From: a virus | Taxonomy: Duplodnaviria > Heunggongvirae > Uroviricota > Caudoviricetes | Strand: one strand, 5' to 3' | Virus record (IMG/VR): IMGVR_UViG_3300014927_000119 | Length of the DNA: 37,820 bases | Notes under the pieces: generated by a model | Database searches by the model: none | Told to the model about the DNA's origin: nothing | The model's input: only the letters and a program-made list of their open reading frames with translations | Translations under genes and position numbers: made by a program | In this document: one piece after another, positions 7,048-10,780 of the stretch | How positions within the stretch are numbered: the first letter of the stretch is position 1 | Layout: the number at the start of each line of letters is the position of its first letter

Positions 7048-8238
7048 TTAATTGCTGTTAACCGAGGTGACCAGATTTGCCAGATATTTATCGGTGATAC
7101 GCTGGCGCAGGGTCAGGTTTTCAAGAGGAGGCACCGGGGTATAGTCGTAGTCGATATACAGTTTTCCTGCCTTGAGGGTTTCCGCATCGTTGGATTCTTC
7201 GCTGAACCAGCAGGTCGCATCCACGATATAGCCGTTTGTTTTCAGCTCACGGAATTTGGCATTGATGCCGTCAACGATGTCGCGAATCAGCGTTGCGGTG
7301 ATGGGCTTGTCCACCGCCCACATGTGCGCCTCAGCCATCGTGTCGGCCATCACCTGCGCGGTGCGGGTGTAGTTTTCAAAGAGGAACAGCGGGTCATCAG
7401 AGCAGGTACGGTTACCCCAGAATCGGAAACCGTCGCGGCGAATCAGCGTAGTGACGCCTGACTCGTTAAGCAGGTCAGCATCGGTGCCGGACTCCTGCAA
7501 ATCCCAGAATACAGATGCGCTGATGCCGGTAACACCGTTCACCCCGACGTTGGACAGCGTTTTATGCCAGCCCTGCTCCTGGTCGATTTTGGCACGCAGA
7601 CCCAGCGCACGGGCGGTGGCATACGCGGTGGCGGTGGTACTGGTGACCGTATCCCATGCGAGGAAATCCGGCCAGATGACCATCAGCTCACGCTGGCTGA
7701 AATTCTGGCGGTAGGCTTTCACCTCGGAAATGGTCTTACAGCCCCATGCGCTGATATACCCGAAAGCGCGCAGCTTCTGACAGACTGATGCCAGTGCAAC
7801 AGCCACCTCTTTGGTATCCAGTCCCGGCACGCCGAGAATACGCGGTTTAACACCGGTTACCGACTCCGCCGCCAGCAGGGCTTTCAGTCCGGTGTACTGG
7901 CCGTTTTCGTCGGTGGTGCCGATGATATTGGACACGGTCTGCGCGAGTTTCGTTTCTTCATCGTCGCCGGTGCCGTCTTCCACACGCACGACAACGGTGA
8001 CCGGTTTTGACTGGTCGGCGATGGCCTGCAACGATGCCGCCAGCGTGCCTTTTTTACCGGCCTTTGCAATTGCGCTCTGCACATTGGTAATCAGCACAGG
8101 TTTATTGAGGGGGAAGGTTTCCGCATCCGCATCGCTGGCCGTGCAGACCATGCCGACAATGGCAGTGGATACAGTGGAAATGACGCGGGTGCCCTCGTTA
8201 ATCTCCAGCACCTGCACGCCGTGATGATAGTTACTCAT
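7048..8238 (-). CDS. FI: Contractile tail sheath protein FI
   Basis: 396 aa, P2 gpFI length and position; GGAG 9 nt upstream of the ATG. Confidence 0.92.
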   Translation of the reverse strand: MSNYHHGVQVLEINEGTRVISTVSTAIVGMVCTASDADAETFPLNKPVLITNVQSAIAKAGKKGTLAASLQAIADQSKPVTVVVRVEDGTGDDEETKLAQTVSNIIGTTDENGQYTGLKALLAAESVTGVKPRILGVPGLDTKEVAVALASVCQKLRAFGYISAWGCKTISEVKAYRQNFSQRELMVIWPDFLAWDTVTSTTATAYATARALGLRAKIDQEQGWHKTLSNVGVNGVTGISASVFWDLQESGTDADLLNESGVTTLIRRDGFRFWGNRTCSDDPLFLFENYTRTAQVMADTMAEAHMWAVDKPITATLIRDIVDGINAKFRELKTNGYIVDATCWFSEESNDAETLKAGKLYIDYDYTPVPPLENLTLRQRITDKYLANLVTSVNSN

Positions 8239-8523
8239 CCGTTTAACTCCGTGGTTAATGGGCGCAACTATTTTCTGTTGTGCAGAGCATGAGACGCTAT
8301 TTGACCTGGCTGGTCAGTGGATGAAACAACAGACAAAGAAAAGGCGGGTAATCCGCCAGCCTGTCATGATTTGCACTCACTCCTTTTCCAACTGACAATT
8401 TACATAGCCCAAACGCTATCAAATCTGACAGTCTGCTTTGAGCGAATAGCGGACCTTACTTTTACTGTGGTATATTAATCAAAGGAAGTTTTTACATCAT
8501 TTAACCCAGAAAGGATGTTATTT

Positions 8524-9153
8524 ATGGCACGAACATACCCGTCAGAATGGAGTAAATTTTGCAAGACCATAAATACGAATAATGGATTTTCATATTACAC
8601 CAGTAATATTAAAGCCCAAATTCTTATTGGAGACATAAATCGATTTGCTGCCAGATATGCTGTGGCAGAGGACTTCAACGGTGTTGATATTATGGGTTCT
8701 ACTATAGAAACAAGGCTTGGGTATGAAGCATTGATGAGGGCATTACTTACCTGGAGCGTCGTGGAAACATATTTTAATATATTTTCAGTCGGATTAACTG
8801 ATGTTTATACATGTTTTCCTTTTACACAAAAGGAAAAGCATGACATCAGAAGCAAACTTAATGCGATTGGTAATGACACAATTAAATTTTATACATTCAT
8901 TTCTTTGAATTGTAACGCTCGTCATAAAACAAACACAAATGACTTTATAGCGAATAATGATTTTAACCCAATAATGCTATTGTCTGCCATTCGTCATGTT
9001 TTTGGCCACGGTGATCTAAGCGCTAATGTTAATAATGTTGACCCTGAATCAATAAATAAAATCGTAAATATCTTAAAGAAAGAAATTATAACTAAAATAG
9101 ATACTTCTTTCTCTTTATTAGTTCAAATGCACCCTAATTATTCTACTGTATGA
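8524..9153 (+). CDS. Hypothetical protein, cargo ORF in the Z/fun slot (209 aa from ATG 8524; 212 aa from ATG 8515)
   Basis: AT-rich ORF on the strand opposite the late genes; AAGGA (8511-8515) 8 nt upstream of ATG 8524; TGgTATATT extended -10-like element at 8468-8476. No motif I can recognise. Confidence 0.6.
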   Translation: MARTYPSEWSKFCKTINTNNGFSYYTSNIKAQILIGDINRFAARYAVAEDFNGVDIMGSTIETRLGYEALMRALLTWSVVETYFNIFSVGLTDVYTCFPFTQKEKHDIRSKLNAIGNDTIKFYTFISLNCNARHKTNTNDFIANNDFNPIMLLSAIRHVFGHGDLSANVNNVDPESINKIVNILKKEIITKIDTSFSLLVQMHPNYSTV

Positions 9154-9298
9154 TCTTGATGATAGGTTTTTACGAAAATAATCACCTTGGGTTATTTGAT
9201 GGATACTTTTTTTAAGTAACCCTTATTAATTTACACATTATTTCTGCCATATCCTTAGCTGATACAAGGTGAACGTCCCACGTAGTATTTTACCATTA

Positions 9299-10048
9299 TT
9301 ACTGGCTATTCAATTCCCACTCAATACAGTCAGTCATCATAGGAATAAAACTTTCACAAGATGAAGAAAAAACCTCGACAAATTTCGATTTATAACTTTC
9401 TGGAACATGCCAATCCTGAGGGATGCTATCTACGATAGATTGATAATAATCAACTGGTATTTCACATATTCTATTCATCCATAATGAATACCCTTCTATA
9501 GCATGGATATTTCCACAATGATATGGCGATGATTCAGTAAATAATTGATTAGGAGTCCAGATAAGGCCGTCCTCACCCCATGTACTGCCATTATTATCTA
9601 CAAAAGCAATGCCAGCATCCATAAATAGCAATTTATCATTTAACAACTTGCAAGTGTCATTTTTTACATCGCCTATAGATAACCAATTATCAAATATTGA
9701 TTTCCCATACAGATCACTCAACTGGTCGTTACTATATTGATAATTTTCAGGCAACTCTTTTAAATCATGTATGAACTCATATGCAATAACACATGAAGTT
9801 GATATTTTTAGTTCACTTCTTACATTTTCAGAAAGTTGTACAACATGGCCTTTTGGCCAAGGCAACTCTATTTTTTCGGCTAGTTTAAAAGCCACATACT
9901 CATTAAATAATGCTTTAAATTCATGCCCAGATTCGTTTAAATATGTTTTTACAAACCACTCTCCCCCTAACTCATCAGTACCTATAAAAGGATGAGAATG
10001 ACTTATCGACTTTTCCAGCTTATCGCTAATGACATTAATTGTTATCAC
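9299..10048 (-). CDS. Hypothetical protein, cargo ORF in the Z/fun slot (249 aa, GTG start)
   Basis: AT-rich ORF; first in-frame start is GTG at 10048-10046 with AAGG 5 nt upstream; contains LGGEWFVK, GDVKND and FMDAG motifs that loosely resemble kinase-fold signatures. Confidence 0.55.
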   Translation of the reverse strand: MITINVISDKLEKSISHSHPFIGTDELGGEWFVKTYLNESGHEFKALFNEYVAFKLAEKIELPWPKGHVVQLSENVRSELKISTSCVIAYEFIHDLKELPENYQYSNDQLSDLYGKSIFDNWLSIGDVKNDTCKLLNDKLLFMDAGIAFVDNNGSTWGEDGLIWTPNQLFTESSPYHCGNIHAIEGYSLWMNRICEIPVDYYQSIVDSIPQDWHVPESYKSKFVEVFSSSCESFIPMMTDCIEWELNSQ

Positions 10049-10252
10049 GGGGACCTTAAATAATCATAAAATGATGAATGAATTATAATTGGATAACCAA
10101 GAGCAGTCCAAACAATTTCTAGCGATTAGTTGATTACCTGCATATTAGCGTTTTGTTGATTTTTGATGTCTGCTTCTGGCACAGAGCGGACTGTCAGATT
10201 AGTCTTTACTCTGTGTCATAGATATGTCAGCTCACACCAGAGCTCATACAAC

Positions 10253-10780
10253 TTATTGCGGCATTTCCGGCCATTTAGGATTTGCAGGATCCACACGACT
10301 GACCAGAACGCTGTAACGCTCCCATGCATCCAGTCGGCTACGCTCCTCATCTGTTGCCATGTTCAGTCTGACCGCGCGCTCCAGCGGCAAAATCACGGAT
10401 TCAGCATCTGCAAGAAGTCTGGCTTTCCGGTTTTCTGCCTGCTGCAGCAATTCCTCTGCCGTATAAATGCGTTTAATCACTTTGCCGTCCTTAAACATCC
10501 AGCCCCCTGAAATGTCCGCCCGTCGGTTAGCAGTAATATCCGCCACTTCAACAACACTTAATCCATCCGGTCTGATAGCTGTCACATCCTTTTCCACATA
10601 GCGGATAATATTATCTTTGTCGTACGCTATTTTTATCGTGTCATCAGCAAAATACTTTTGTTCTTCGTACCAGTTCTTACCATCTTCTGAAAAAAACCAG
10701 ACAACATCAAAACCCTTTGTCAATTGATATTGTTCAACCGTTTTTGGATTACCCGCCGTAATATTTTTTAAATGCTGCAT
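10253..10780 (-). CDS. G: Tail fiber assembly protein G
   Basis: 175 aa, P2 gpG length; immediately downstream of H. Confidence 0.9.

What the first reader, a model, noticed from the sequence alone, without database searches (positions are those of the whole stretch)
8239..10252. P2 Z/fun slot between FI and G is replaced by two convergent AT-rich orphan genes
In P2 the FI-G interval holds Z/fun, a prophage-expressed gene that excludes phage T5. Here the interval contains a 209/212-aa ORF on the plus strand and a 249-aa ORF on the minus strand, convergent and 145 bp apart, both visibly AT-rich compared with the flanking late genes. Neither resembles anything I can name. The position, orientation independent of late transcription and foreign composition fit moron/defence cargo.
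Basis: partly seen in the sequence, partly recalled or inferred. Interest (0 to 1): 0.8.

Follow-up and report, generated by a model that had tools for sequence, protein, structure and literature searches.

The report
Kinase and RNase cassette, P2 hotspot
A P2-like prophage carries, in its already known tail-gene defence hotspot, a swap-in DNA cassette with two separately mobile genes (a minimal HipA-like protein kinase and a probable HEPN-type RNase) that are most likely anti-phage genes, and the cassette's hairpin ends hint at how such cargo is exchanged between phages and islands.

Summary
Between the P2 FI (sheath) and G (tail-fibre assembly) homologues lie two convergent AT-rich genes 145 bp apart. 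They are not orphans. The 249-aa gene passes Pfam's cutoff for HipA_2, and its model matches CtkA, PI4KII and HipA kinases. The 209-aa gene belongs to an unnamed family (364 clusters at 50% identity) whose only invariant residues form an Rx4HG motif, and its all-alpha model best matches HEPN RNases. Both are under purifying selection.

The slot is a published P2 defence hotspot, and 964 of 5,426 E. coli genomes share its flanks with other cargo. The two genes are separable: each occurs without the other in four to six other contexts, and their homology blocks meet at ~9260. The kinase's neighbours elsewhere are known or candidate defence genes.

Best reading: two stacked, independent, single-gene abortive-infection candidates. 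No phenotype has been tested.

The cargo is bounded by two hairpin types with shared arms and different 6-nt cores. The same hairpins delimit cassettes in lambdoid prophages, islands and plasmids across Enterobacterales. In E. coli they often lie near a conserved 200-aa tyrosine recombinase, which suggests site-specific cassette exchange.

The parts
7048..8238 (-). Left flank: tail sheath gene (P2 gpFI homologue), 396 aa
   Evidence: ORF; the P2 record annotates the collinear gene as gpFI. Pfam Phage_sheath_1 on the identical gene in L029.
8239..8421 (.). P2-conserved region upstream of FI, shared by all P2-like phages whatever their cargo. It contains a terminator-like hairpin at 8343-8357 (minus strand).
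   Evidence: 91-99% identity to P2, P2-EC67 and E. coli prophages, ending at 8449-8464; terminator-like site.
8422..8454 (.). Left inverted-repeat arm: 9-nt outer extension AATCTGACA plus the L-type hairpin at 8431-8454 (arms GTCYGCT/AGCRGAC, core GAGCGA, which reads TCGCTC on the other strand). This is the left cargo boundary.
   Evidence: I1: 33 nt, 79% complementary; 2 matches against 0.01 expected.. The same repeats are annotated in the P2-EC67 Z-region record AJ512685.
8524..9153 (+). ORF-A, 209 aa (the 212-aa reading starts at 8515): probable HEPN-type RNase of an unnamed family. The invariant R-x4-H-G lies at residues 157-163 (numbered from M4).
9154..9298 (.). 145-bp convergent spacer. 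The ORF-A module (shared with Yersinia and Pantoea, ending at 9261) and the ORF-B module (shared with Morganella, starting at 9259) abut here.
   Evidence: blastn breakpoints. (sequence). predicts no terminator here.
9299..10048 (-). ORF-B, 249 aa, GTG start: minimal stand-alone HipA_2-family protein kinase. Invariant residues include K34, E50, D127-x-K129-x-D131 and D144 (in FMDAG).
10082..10110 (-). Sigma-70-like promoter for ORF-B (TGGACT-17-TATAAT, 10 of 12 matches)
   Evidence: This is a consensus match only; expression was not tested.
10168..10200 (.). Right inverted-repeat arm: R-type hairpin at 10168-10191 (core TGGCAC, which reads GTGCCA on the other strand) plus the outer extension TGTCAGATT. 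This is the right cargo boundary.
10253..10780 (-). Right flank: tail-fibre assembly gene (P2 G homologue), 175 aa
   Evidence: annotated 'tail fiber assembly protein' in collinear records. Pfam Caudo_TAP.

Best explanation
The FI-G interval of this P2-like prophage is the known Z/fun accessory hotspot. Here it is filled by a ~1.7-kb AT-rich cassette bounded by two short hairpins.

The cassette holds two independent single-gene modules that face each other, each with its own upstream region. (1) ORF-B is a minimal (249 aa), stand-alone protein kinase of the Pfam HipA_2 family with a complete set of kinase-type catalytic residues. (2) ORF-A is a 209-aa all-alpha protein of an unnamed family, most probably a HEPN-type RNase.

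The most likely function is that each is a prophage-expressed, single-protein abortive-infection or exclusion effector. The kinase would phosphorylate a host translation factor or a phage protein once infection triggers it. The HEPN protein would cleave RNA once triggered.

Shown: the gene models, purifying selection, family and fold assignments, separability of the two genes, variability of the slot, and the defence-rich neighbourhoods. Inferred: expression from the lysogen, catalytic activity, targets, triggers and the anti-phage phenotype.
For: Identity of the proteins:
- ORF-B is a HipA_2 member with a HipA/CtkA/PI4K-like fold.
- K34, E50, D127, K129, D131 and D144 are invariant.

Real genes: (dN/dS 0.19-0.33).

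Independence of the two genes:
- ORF-B occurs without ORF-A in Morganella, Proteus, Dickeya, Serratia and Xenorhabdus, and as a solo hairpin-bounded cassette in Citrobacter gillenii.
- ORF-A occurs without ORF-B in Yersinia, Pantoea, Shewanella and Vibrio.
- A profile search of all ORFs in those loci finds no hidden partner.
- The two homology blocks abut at 9259-9261.

Defence context:
- The slot is a published defence hotspot.
- In Serratia the kinase sits in the other P2 hotspot, between gpA and the portal gene.
- Its neighbours are an AriA-like ATPase (2e-55), HamB (2e-41), PDC-S15, PDC-S31 and PDC-M04A.
- Sister cassettes with the same hairpins encode AbiV, an AbiU2-type HEPN, Mrr-type nucleases and a RelA/SpoT-like PDC-S33.

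Precedent: a HipA-family kinase system, DS-6/HipAD, defends E. coli and needs its kinase activity (PMC13092281).

Own promoter for ORF-B.
Against: - Neither protein matches any PADLOC v2 model, and no phenotype is known.
- Known toxic Hip kinases need an antitoxin or an extra regulatory domain (PMC8262856). ORF-B has neither, so how a constitutively expressed active kinase would be kept harmless is unexplained.
- The pair moves as one 99%-identical unit between three contexts, which also fits a functional pair.
- Cassettes with the same hairpins also carry transporters, GNAT acetyltransferases and a glyoxalase-like protein, so the context does not guarantee defence.
Confidence: 0.55

Rival explanations
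1. ORF-A and ORF-B form one two-component system. The HEPN RNase is a toxin or effector, and the HipA-like kinase switches it off or on by phosphorylating it. This would be analogous to MNT nucleotidyltransferases neutralising HepT HEPN toxins by AMPylation next to the Rx4H motif.
Against: Each gene is found without the other in four to six independent contexts, and no remote homologue of the partner lies within about 6 kb. ORF-B is a solo cassette in C. gillenii. The three paired contexts are about 99% identical, so they count as one recent evolutionary event. The genes are convergent, not an operon. The two homology blocks join at a sharp point (9259-9261), as expected for two modules placed side by side.
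Confidence: 0.2
2. The cargo is accessory but not anti-phage. The genes could be lysogenic-conversion or host-manipulation genes, for example a kinase acting on host physiology or on eukaryotic cells like H. pylori CtkA. Alternatively they could be selfish addiction modules that simply ride the cassette system.
For: The closest solved structure to ORF-B is CtkA, a stand-alone kinase from the H. pylori plasticity zone. Cassettes with the same hairpins carry many non-defence genes, including MFS and LysE transporters, GNAT acetyltransferases and a glyoxalase-like protein. PADLOC gives no hit.
Against: Both P2 slots in which the kinase is found are experimentally established defence hotspots. In five of the five non-P2-slot contexts scanned, the kinase's immediate neighbours are known or candidate defence genes. 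ORF-B has no signal peptide or secretion context in the reading made here. A HEPN fold with an intact catalytic motif is typical of conflict systems (Anantharaman 2013, as cited in PMC13092281).
Confidence: 0.17
3. The ORFs are decaying remnants or chance ORFs in AT-rich filler DNA and have no function.
For: AT-rich DNA contains many chance ORFs. There is no expression data.
Against: dN/dS is 0.19-0.33 across pairs with dS up to 2. Full-length homologues exist in many genera. Catalytic motifs are invariant. The structure models are confident.
Confidence: 0.02

Closest known systems
HipA / HipT / other Hip toxin kinases (type II toxin-antitoxin systems; Gerdes et al. 2021, PMC8262856)
   Different: ORF-B is only 249 aa, against about 335-440 aa for Hip toxins. 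It belongs to a different Pfam family from HipA_C. It is monocistronic, with no HipB- or HipS-type antitoxin gene and no HTH or HipS-HIRAN extension. Its substrate is unknown.
DS-6 / HipAD (HipA-family kinase defence system; DefensePredictor, PMC13092281)
   Same: It is a HipA-related kinase used for anti-phage defence in E. coli, and its kinase activity is essential.
   Different: DS-6 is a two-gene operon whose partner protein carries DUF3037 and DUF1829. ORF-B stands alone.
CtkA (JHP940) of Helicobacter pylori
   Different: Sequence identity is 14%. CtkA is reported as a secreted, host-cell-directed kinase. Nothing here suggests that ORF-B is secreted.
Single-protein HEPN abortive-infection genes (AbiV, AbiU2, AbiD/F) and HepT toxins
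   Same: Similar size (about 200 aa), all-alpha fold, an Rx4H-type motif as the only invariant feature, and stand-alone genes in prophage or island hotspots. AbiV and AbiU2-type genes occupy sister cassettes bounded by the same hairpins.
   Different: ORF-A matches no curated HEPN family, and hhalign against AbiV, DUF4145 and another RNxxxH protein shows no relation. The motif is RH[IV]F[AG]HG rather than RNxxxH. RNase activity is untested.
P2 Z/fun and the P2 'hotspot 2' defence cargo (Vassallo 2022)
   Same: Same slot between the sheath and tail-fibre-assembly genes, same conserved flanks and inverted repeats, AT-rich composition and own promoter.
   Different: There is no sequence similarity to Z/fun or to any cargo in 50,697 phage records. 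Here there are two convergent genes instead of one.
Integron cassettes, Acinetobacter pdif modules and laboratory recombinase-mediated cassette exchange (for the hairpin boundaries only)
   Same: Promoter-carrying or promoter-less gene cassettes are delimited by short imperfect palindromes and arranged in arrays. A tyrosine recombinase is often nearby. The two site types share arms but differ in the central 6 nt, like heterospecific lox or FRT pairs.
   Different: There is no IntI-type integrase and no attC consensus. The recombinase is a 200-aa, catalytic-domain-only, Xer-like protein. Recombination has not been demonstrated. The integrase lies within the fetched stretch in only 3 of 29 non-E. 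coli arrays.

Membership tests
Pfam HipA_2 (PF20613) | Whole-protein score at or above Pfam's gathering cutoff (27 bits) over most of the model | tested here: met
   31.3 bits, residues 17-224 on model positions 12-217 of 240; 22 of 23 homologues carry a precomputed PF20613 hit.
Protein-kinase-like / PI3-PI4-kinase-like fold (HipA class) | Two-lobed kinase fold matching solved HipA, CtkA and PI4K structures | tested here: met
Protein-kinase-like / PI3-PI4-kinase-like fold (HipA class) | Conserved ATP-binding Lys, helix-C Glu, catalytic-loop Asp and metal-binding DxG Asp | tested here: inconclusive
   K34, E50, D127, K129, D131 and D144 are invariant in 20 homologues. Assigning them to kinase motifs is an inference from their order and spacing, not from a structural superposition.
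HipBA / HipBST-type toxin-antitoxin module | Adjacent co-transcribed antitoxin gene (HipB, HipS or similar), or a fused regulatory domain (HTH, HipS-HIRAN) | tested here: not met
   ORF-B is always monocistronic with 160-250 bp of upstream spacer, its neighbours differ, and the 249 aa form the kinase core only. Compared with the criteria in PMC8262856.
HipBA / HipBST-type toxin-antitoxin module | Growth arrest through phosphorylation of an aminoacyl-tRNA synthetase | not testable with these tools
   Needs toxicity assays and phosphoproteomics.
HEPN superfamily | Conserved Rx4-6H motif | tested here: met
   in 100 family members down to about 20% identity, the only invariant residues are R157, H162 and G163 (R-x4-H-G, numbered from M4), and H158 is nearly invariant. 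One search shows the same in close homologues.
HEPN superfamily | All-alpha helical-bundle fold superposable on solved HEPN domains | tested here: inconclusive
HEPN superfamily | Match to a curated HEPN family model (Pfam or NCBIfam) | tested here: not met
   none for ORF-A; only 2 of 100 relatives give marginal hits (HEPN_Apea E = 0.0038, HEPN_RiboL-PSP E = 0.0075); hhalign against AbiV, DUF4145 and an RNxxxH protein gives probability below 1%.
HEPN superfamily | Metal-independent RNase activity | not testable with these tools
   Needs biochemistry.
P2 Z/fun hotspot cargo | Lies between FI and G homologues, with conserved flanks and cargo that varies among P2-like phages | tested here: met
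P2 Z/fun protein family | Sequence homology to P2 Z/fun | tested here: not met
   tblastn of both proteins against 50,697 phage records, P2 included, gives no match.
Known anti-phage defence systems (PADLOC-DB v2.0.0) | Match to a defence-protein model | tested here: not met
   no hit for either protein at E <= 1. The library dates from 2023; newer catalogues were not available.
Integron (for the cassette boundaries) | IntI-type integrase with attI, and attC sites at the cassette ends | tested here: not met
   the nearby recombinase scores 58.6 bits against the XerA / integron-integrase model, whose cutoff is 220; it has only the 172-position catalytic domain; the hairpins (GTCCGCT-N10-AGCGGAC) lack the attC R-box GTTRRRY.

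The most novel reading that the evidence does not exclude
The two hairpins that bound this cargo are heterospecific core sites of a site-specific recombination system. They share 7-nt inverted arms (GTCCGCT/AGCGGAC) but have different 6-nt centres (R = GTGCCA, L = TCGCTC). A conserved 200-aa Xer-like tyrosine recombinase acting in trans is the probable enzyme. R x R and L x L crossovers would then swap whole cassettes, a natural form of recombinase-mediated cassette exchange, between the P2 Z/fun slot, a slot in Qin/Rac-like lambdoid prophages, chromosomal islands and plasmids across Enterobacterales. Single-site events would create new gene pairs such as the ORF-B / ORF-A pair seen here. This would supply the missing mechanism for the rapid swapping of defence cargo at a P2 hotspot.
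Probability: 0.35. Interest if true: 0.8.

Novelty: new variant of a known kind. Interest (0 to 1): 0.55.

Why it matters
The slot and the general idea (prophage hotspot cargo acting as anti-phage genes) are already known, so the finding does not change the picture of P2 biology.

It does add two concrete, testable candidates:
- A 249-aa HipA_2 kinase that stands alone with no antitoxin. If it defends, one has to ask how a minimal Hip-like kinase is kept silent and what it phosphorylates.
- An unnamed family of about 200-aa Rx4HG proteins (364 clusters) that would extend the list of single-protein HEPN abortive-infection genes.

The wider point came from the boundaries. The same two hairpins delimit cassettes in P2-like and lambdoid prophages, islands and plasmids in at least a dozen enterobacterial genera. 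Homology between copies breaks at the edge of the hairpin cores. A 2026 preprint on P2/P4 hotspots states that the recombination process that swaps defence cargo is still to be elucidated. These hairpins, already annotated as inverted repeats in 2003-2004 GenBank records, make that question directly testable for one hotspot.

Tried and rejected
- PADLOC, PHROGs and NCBIfam scans of both proteins gave nothing informative, apart from phrog_3162 (unknown function) for ORF-B.
- Sequence searches of both family profiles against PDB gave no significant hit.
- Distant blastn of the cargo against complete E. coli genomes, and tblastn against phages, gave no match.
- Rfam on the interval gave nothing above noise. 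The hairpins are not a known RNA family, and neither is followed by a T-run, so I rejected the idea that they are intrinsic terminators.
- CapK/CapS, a kinase-repressor pair upstream of immune operons, was considered for ORF-B and rejected. CapK is an anti-sigma-factor-type kinase, a different fold.
- I considered that the outer 9 nt (AATCTGACA/TGTCAGATT) are the terminal inverted repeats of a transposon-like element. This was rejected as a general rule, because internal junctions carry a different 18-nt spacer (CTTCAGCTCAGTGA...).
- hhalign of the ORF-A family against AbiV, DUF4145 and an RNxxxH protein showed no relation.
- Nilsson et al. 2004 (Mol Biol Evol 21:1), which probably first described these repeats, is not held in the library. 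Its content could not be checked.
Full report
OBSERVATION.

The window carries a P2-like prophage whose late genes lie on the minus strand. Between the sheath gene (7048..8238, gpFI homologue) and the tail-fibre assembly gene (10253..10780, G homologue) lie two ORFs: 8515..9153 (+, 212 aa) and 9299..10048 (-, 249 aa, GTG start). They are convergent and 145 bp apart. GC falls to 0.29-0.39 across the interval, against 0.53-0.60 in the flanks. In P2 itself the same interval holds one 299-aa gene, Z/fun.

- The plus-strand gene almost certainly starts at M4 (8524), giving 209 aa. Ten of 13 homologues start there, and an AAAGGA site lies 8 nt upstream.
- Because the late genes are on the minus strand, the 249-aa gene is co-oriented with them. 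Only the 209-aa gene is antisense.

Both ORFs are under purifying selection, with dN/dS of 0.19-0.33 against homologues with dS up to about 2.

THE SLOT.

Megablast of the interval finds 964 of 5,426 complete E. coli genomes and 67 phage records that match only its edges. The matches cover about 215-226 bp on the left and about 80 bp on the right.

Between these edges sit other cargos:
- an acetyltransferase with an HTH protein;
- a DUF4145 protein;
- a SIR2 protein;
- Mrr-type nucleases;
- HAD with NUDIX hydrolases;
- FlxA-like genes.

The slot is already in the literature. Vassallo et al. 2022 call the fun locus a second defence-enriched P2 locus holding three of their validated systems (PMC9519451), and a 2024 preprint re-identifies it as a hotspot.

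The particular cargo seen here is rare. It has no match in complete E. coli genomes by sensitive blastn or in 50,697 phage records by tblastn. The exact kinase protein is, however, on record in at least 52 blocks of draft assemblies, mostly in this same prophage. Window 1-20048 is 99.1% identical to one of these.

ORF-B (249 aa).

It passes Pfam's gathering cutoff for HipA_2 (31.3 against 27 bits, nearly full length). Sources name its homologues 'HipA family kinase' in Citrobacter, Morganella, Dickeya, Pectobacterium, Serratia, Proteus and Xenorhabdus.

Foldseek agrees. Invariant residues K34, E50, D127-x-K129-x-D131 and D144 (FMDAG) fall in the order expected for the ATP-binding Lys, helix-C Glu, catalytic loop and metal-binding Asp. 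That mapping is my inference. A promoter-like site (TGGACT-17-TATAAT) lies 34 bp upstream of the start codon.

Unlike Hip toxins, ORF-B has no adjacent antitoxin gene and no extra domain. According to Gerdes et al. 2021, short Hip kinases always have a partner, and the monocistronic ones carry HTH or HipS-HIRAN domains (PMC8262856).

ORF-A (209 aa).

No curated family matches it. A full HMMER scan of 1.84 billion representative proteins with the family profile finds 364 clusters (157 at E <= 1e-10). Nearly all are stand-alone proteins of about 200 aa. In an alignment of 100 of them, down to about 20% identity, the only invariant residues are R157, H162 and G163 (numbered from M4), in the motif RH[IV]F[AG]HG. 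That is an Rx4H motif of the HEPN type.

ARE THE TWO GENES ONE SYSTEM?

The evidence says no.

ORF-B occurs without ORF-A in six other contexts:
- next to the integrase of a lambdoid prophage in Morganella, convergent with a 595-aa AriA/OLD-like ATPase;
- in a Proteus island beside a DUF2971 / PDC-S31 gene;
- in a Dickeya ICE beside a HamB helicase;
- in the other P2 hotspot (between gpA and the portal gene) of a Serratia prophage, beside HicB and an FRG / PDC-S15 gene;
- in a Xenorhabdus island;
- as a solo hairpin-bounded cassette in Citrobacter gillenii.

ORF-A occurs without ORF-B in four other contexts:
- in Yersinia and Pantoea, convergent with an unrelated 160-aa gene;
- in a moron slot of a Mu-like prophage in Shewanella;
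- in a Vibrio array of small same-strand genes.

Profile searches of every ORF in these loci find no hidden partner. At the DNA level, the ORF-A block shared with Yersinia and Pantoea ends at window 9261, and the ORF-B block shared with Morganella starts at 9259. The 145-bp spacer is therefore the seam between two modules.

The pair does travel as a unit at about 99% identity into a Citrobacter island and a lambdoid prophage. That is one recent event, and it is explained by the cassette boundaries described below.

MECHANISM.

The best-supported reading is two stacked, independent single-gene effectors expressed from the lysogen. One is a kinase that, once triggered, phosphorylates a host translation component or a phage protein. 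The other is a HEPN RNase that cleaves RNA once triggered. Both would act by abortive infection or exclusion.

Support comes from several lines:
- the defence-rich neighbourhoods;
- the kinase's presence in both experimentally established P2 hotspots;
- sister cassettes that encode AbiV, an AbiU2-type HEPN, Mrr-type nucleases and a RelA/SpoT-like candidate;
- the precedent of DS-6/HipAD, where a HipA-family kinase defends E. coli and needs its catalytic residue (PMC13092281).

Against it: neither protein is in PADLOC v2, nothing explains how an antitoxin-less kinase is restrained, and the same cassette system also carries transporters and acetyltransferases. Activity, trigger, target and phenotype are all inferred.

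A 33-nt imperfect inverted repeat brackets the cargo at 8422-8454 and 10168-10200. Its 16-nt outer part has two matches in the window against 0.01 expected. The conserved P2 flanks stop exactly there in every P2-like phage examined, and GenBank record AJ512685 (P2-EC67 Z region) annotates the same repeats.

The inner 24 nt of each arm is a hairpin, GTCCGCT-N10-AGCGGAC, and it comes in two types. The R type has the core GTGCCA and always lies upstream of ORF-B. The L type has the core TCGCTC and always lies upstream of ORF-A. In 19 R and 16 L non-redundant copies, the arms and the type-specific cores are at least 80% conserved, while the enclosed genes are unrelated. There are 60 hits in 420 kb, against about 8 expected by chance.

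The same hairpins occur outside P2:
- They bracket the kinase and the AriA-like gene in Morganella.
- They bracket a whole 4.7-kb island in Pantoea.
- They bracket successive single genes in Citrobacter.

Adjacent cassettes are joined by L - 18 nt (CTTCAGCTCAGTGA...) - R.

In one lambdoid (Qin/Rac-like) prophage, the ORF-B/ORF-A cassette is followed directly by the HTH + acetyltransferase cassette that fills the P2 slot in E. coli 300444. Each is delimited hairpin to hairpin, at 99.3% and 98.7% identity.

Across window, L030, L005, L001 and L013, homology between copies breaks at the outer edge of the 6-nt core at both ends. This is what strand exchange at a core site would leave, and what homologous recombination in the flanks would not.

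The full junction occurs in 859 of 5,426 E. coli genomes, at 1-3 intergenic copies. A complete 200-aa, catalytic-domain-only, Xer-like tyrosine recombinase occurs in 863. This recombinase is 95.5-97.5% identical between Citrobacter and E. coli. It abuts the cassette in Citrobacter. It lies 1.5-2.5 kb from a junction in every E. coli genome where both positions were seen.

A scan of species-representative genomes found typed hairpin arrays in 29 loci. Of these, 28 are in Enterobacterales, spread over about a dozen genera, and one is in an unclassified Proteobacteria MAG. Arrays reach eight hairpins in 12.7 kb. The recombinase was inside the fetched stretch in only 3 of the 29, so the link is suggestive, not established. 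It is absent from this window.

My hypothesis is natural recombinase-mediated cassette exchange through two heterospecific sites. Short-homology recombination by prophage RecET/Red functions is the main alternative.

Prior art exists: the title of Nilsson, Karlsson and Haggard-Ljungquist 2004 speaks of site-specific recombination linking P2-like phages and enterobacteria. That paper is not held here. A 2026 preprint still lists the swapping mechanism as unresolved.

VERDICT.

For the cargo, novelty is a new variant of a known kind. Interest is moderate (0.55). It is raised by the antitoxin-less minimal Hip-like kinase, the uncurated Rx4HG family, and above all the hairpin-bounded cassette system, which deserves its own study.

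Noticed in passing
window 8422-8454 and 10168-10200; L030 9858-13077; L005 5862-9645; L033 774-5065; L034 3981-7161; L067, L105, L055: The cargo is bounded by two hairpin types with shared arms (GTCCGCT/AGCGGAC) and different 6-nt cores (R = GTGCCA, L = TCGCTC). The same hairpins delimit cassettes in lambdoid prophages, islands and a plasmid. Adjacent cassettes are joined by L - 18 nt (CTTCAGCTCAGTGA...) - R. Homology between copies breaks at the outer edge of the cores. The full junction occurs in 859 of 5,426 E. coli genomes, and typed hairpin arrays occur in about a dozen enterobacterial genera.
   Followed up: partly
L005 5237-5839; L032 7053-7655; L033 2339-2941; L035 7001-7603 (CFT073, WP_001305361); L036 7001-7603 (plasmid): A complete 200-aa, catalytic-domain-only, Xer-like tyrosine recombinase is 95.5-97.5% identical between Citrobacter and E. 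coli. It is present in 863 of 5,426 E. coli genomes and lies 1.5-2.5 kb from hairpin junctions wherever both positions were seen. It was within the fetched stretch in only 3 of 29 non-E. coli arrays. It is not in the window.
   Followed up: partly
L030 11636-13078 and L025 1692-3131: The HTH + acetyltransferase pair that fills the P2 slot in E. coli 300444 occurs at 98.7% identity in a Qin/Rac-like lambdoid prophage, in tandem with the ORF-B/ORF-A cassette. FlxA-like cargo of other P2 slots also recalls a Qin prophage gene. The two phage families appear to share a cassette pool.
   Followed up: partly
L001 6929-8716 (Morganella morganii): A 595-aa protein convergent with the kinase matches the PARIS ATPase AriA over its whole model (2e-55) and carries about 220 further residues. 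It may be a single-gene fused PARIS-like system. It is bracketed by the same hairpins, next to a lambdoid integrase.
   Followed up: no
L020-L022 6001-6750 (Serratia marcescens): The kinase family also occupies the other P2 hotspot (between the gpA replication gene and the portal gene) in a Serratia P2-like element, beside HicB and an FRG-domain / PDC-S15 gene. No typed hairpins were found there.
   Followed up: no
L004 1012-1494 and L013 4107-4589: In Yersinia and Pantoea, ORF-A is convergent with a conserved 160-aa gene that has no Pfam or PADLOC match. All two-gene cassettes seen (B/A, B/AriA-like, A/160-aa, HTH/acetyltransferase) are convergent, as if built from two hairpin-promoter-gene halves joined tail to tail.
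   Followed up: no
L105 3279-8330 (Trabulsiella odontotermitis); L065 783-3564 (Citrobacter gillenii); L039 8581-9603: Hairpin arrays carry runs of single-gene defence-type cassettes: AbiV (1.3e-44), an Mrr-type nuclease, two unclassified proteins with RNxxxH motifs, an AbiU2-type HEPN, a solo ORF-B homologue, and a RelA/SpoT-like PDC-S33. Other arrays carry MFS and LysE transporters, GNAT acetyltransferases and a glyoxalase-like protein.
   Followed up: partly
L016 6001-7131 (Shewanella hanedai); L018 (Vibrio parahaemolyticus): ORF-A homologues (about 55% identity) sit in a moron slot between head genes of a Mu-like prophage, followed by a YfbU-domain gene. Another sits in a Vibrio array of many small same-strand ORFs that looks like a chromosomal integron cassette array.
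   Followed up: no
window 8343-8357 (minus strand): A terminator-like hairpin (GGCGGATTACCCGCC followed by a T-run) lies in the P2-conserved segment between the cargo and FI. It would stop minus-strand transcripts that leave the cargo before they reach the FI late promoter region. No terminator is predicted between G and ORF-B.
   Followed up: no
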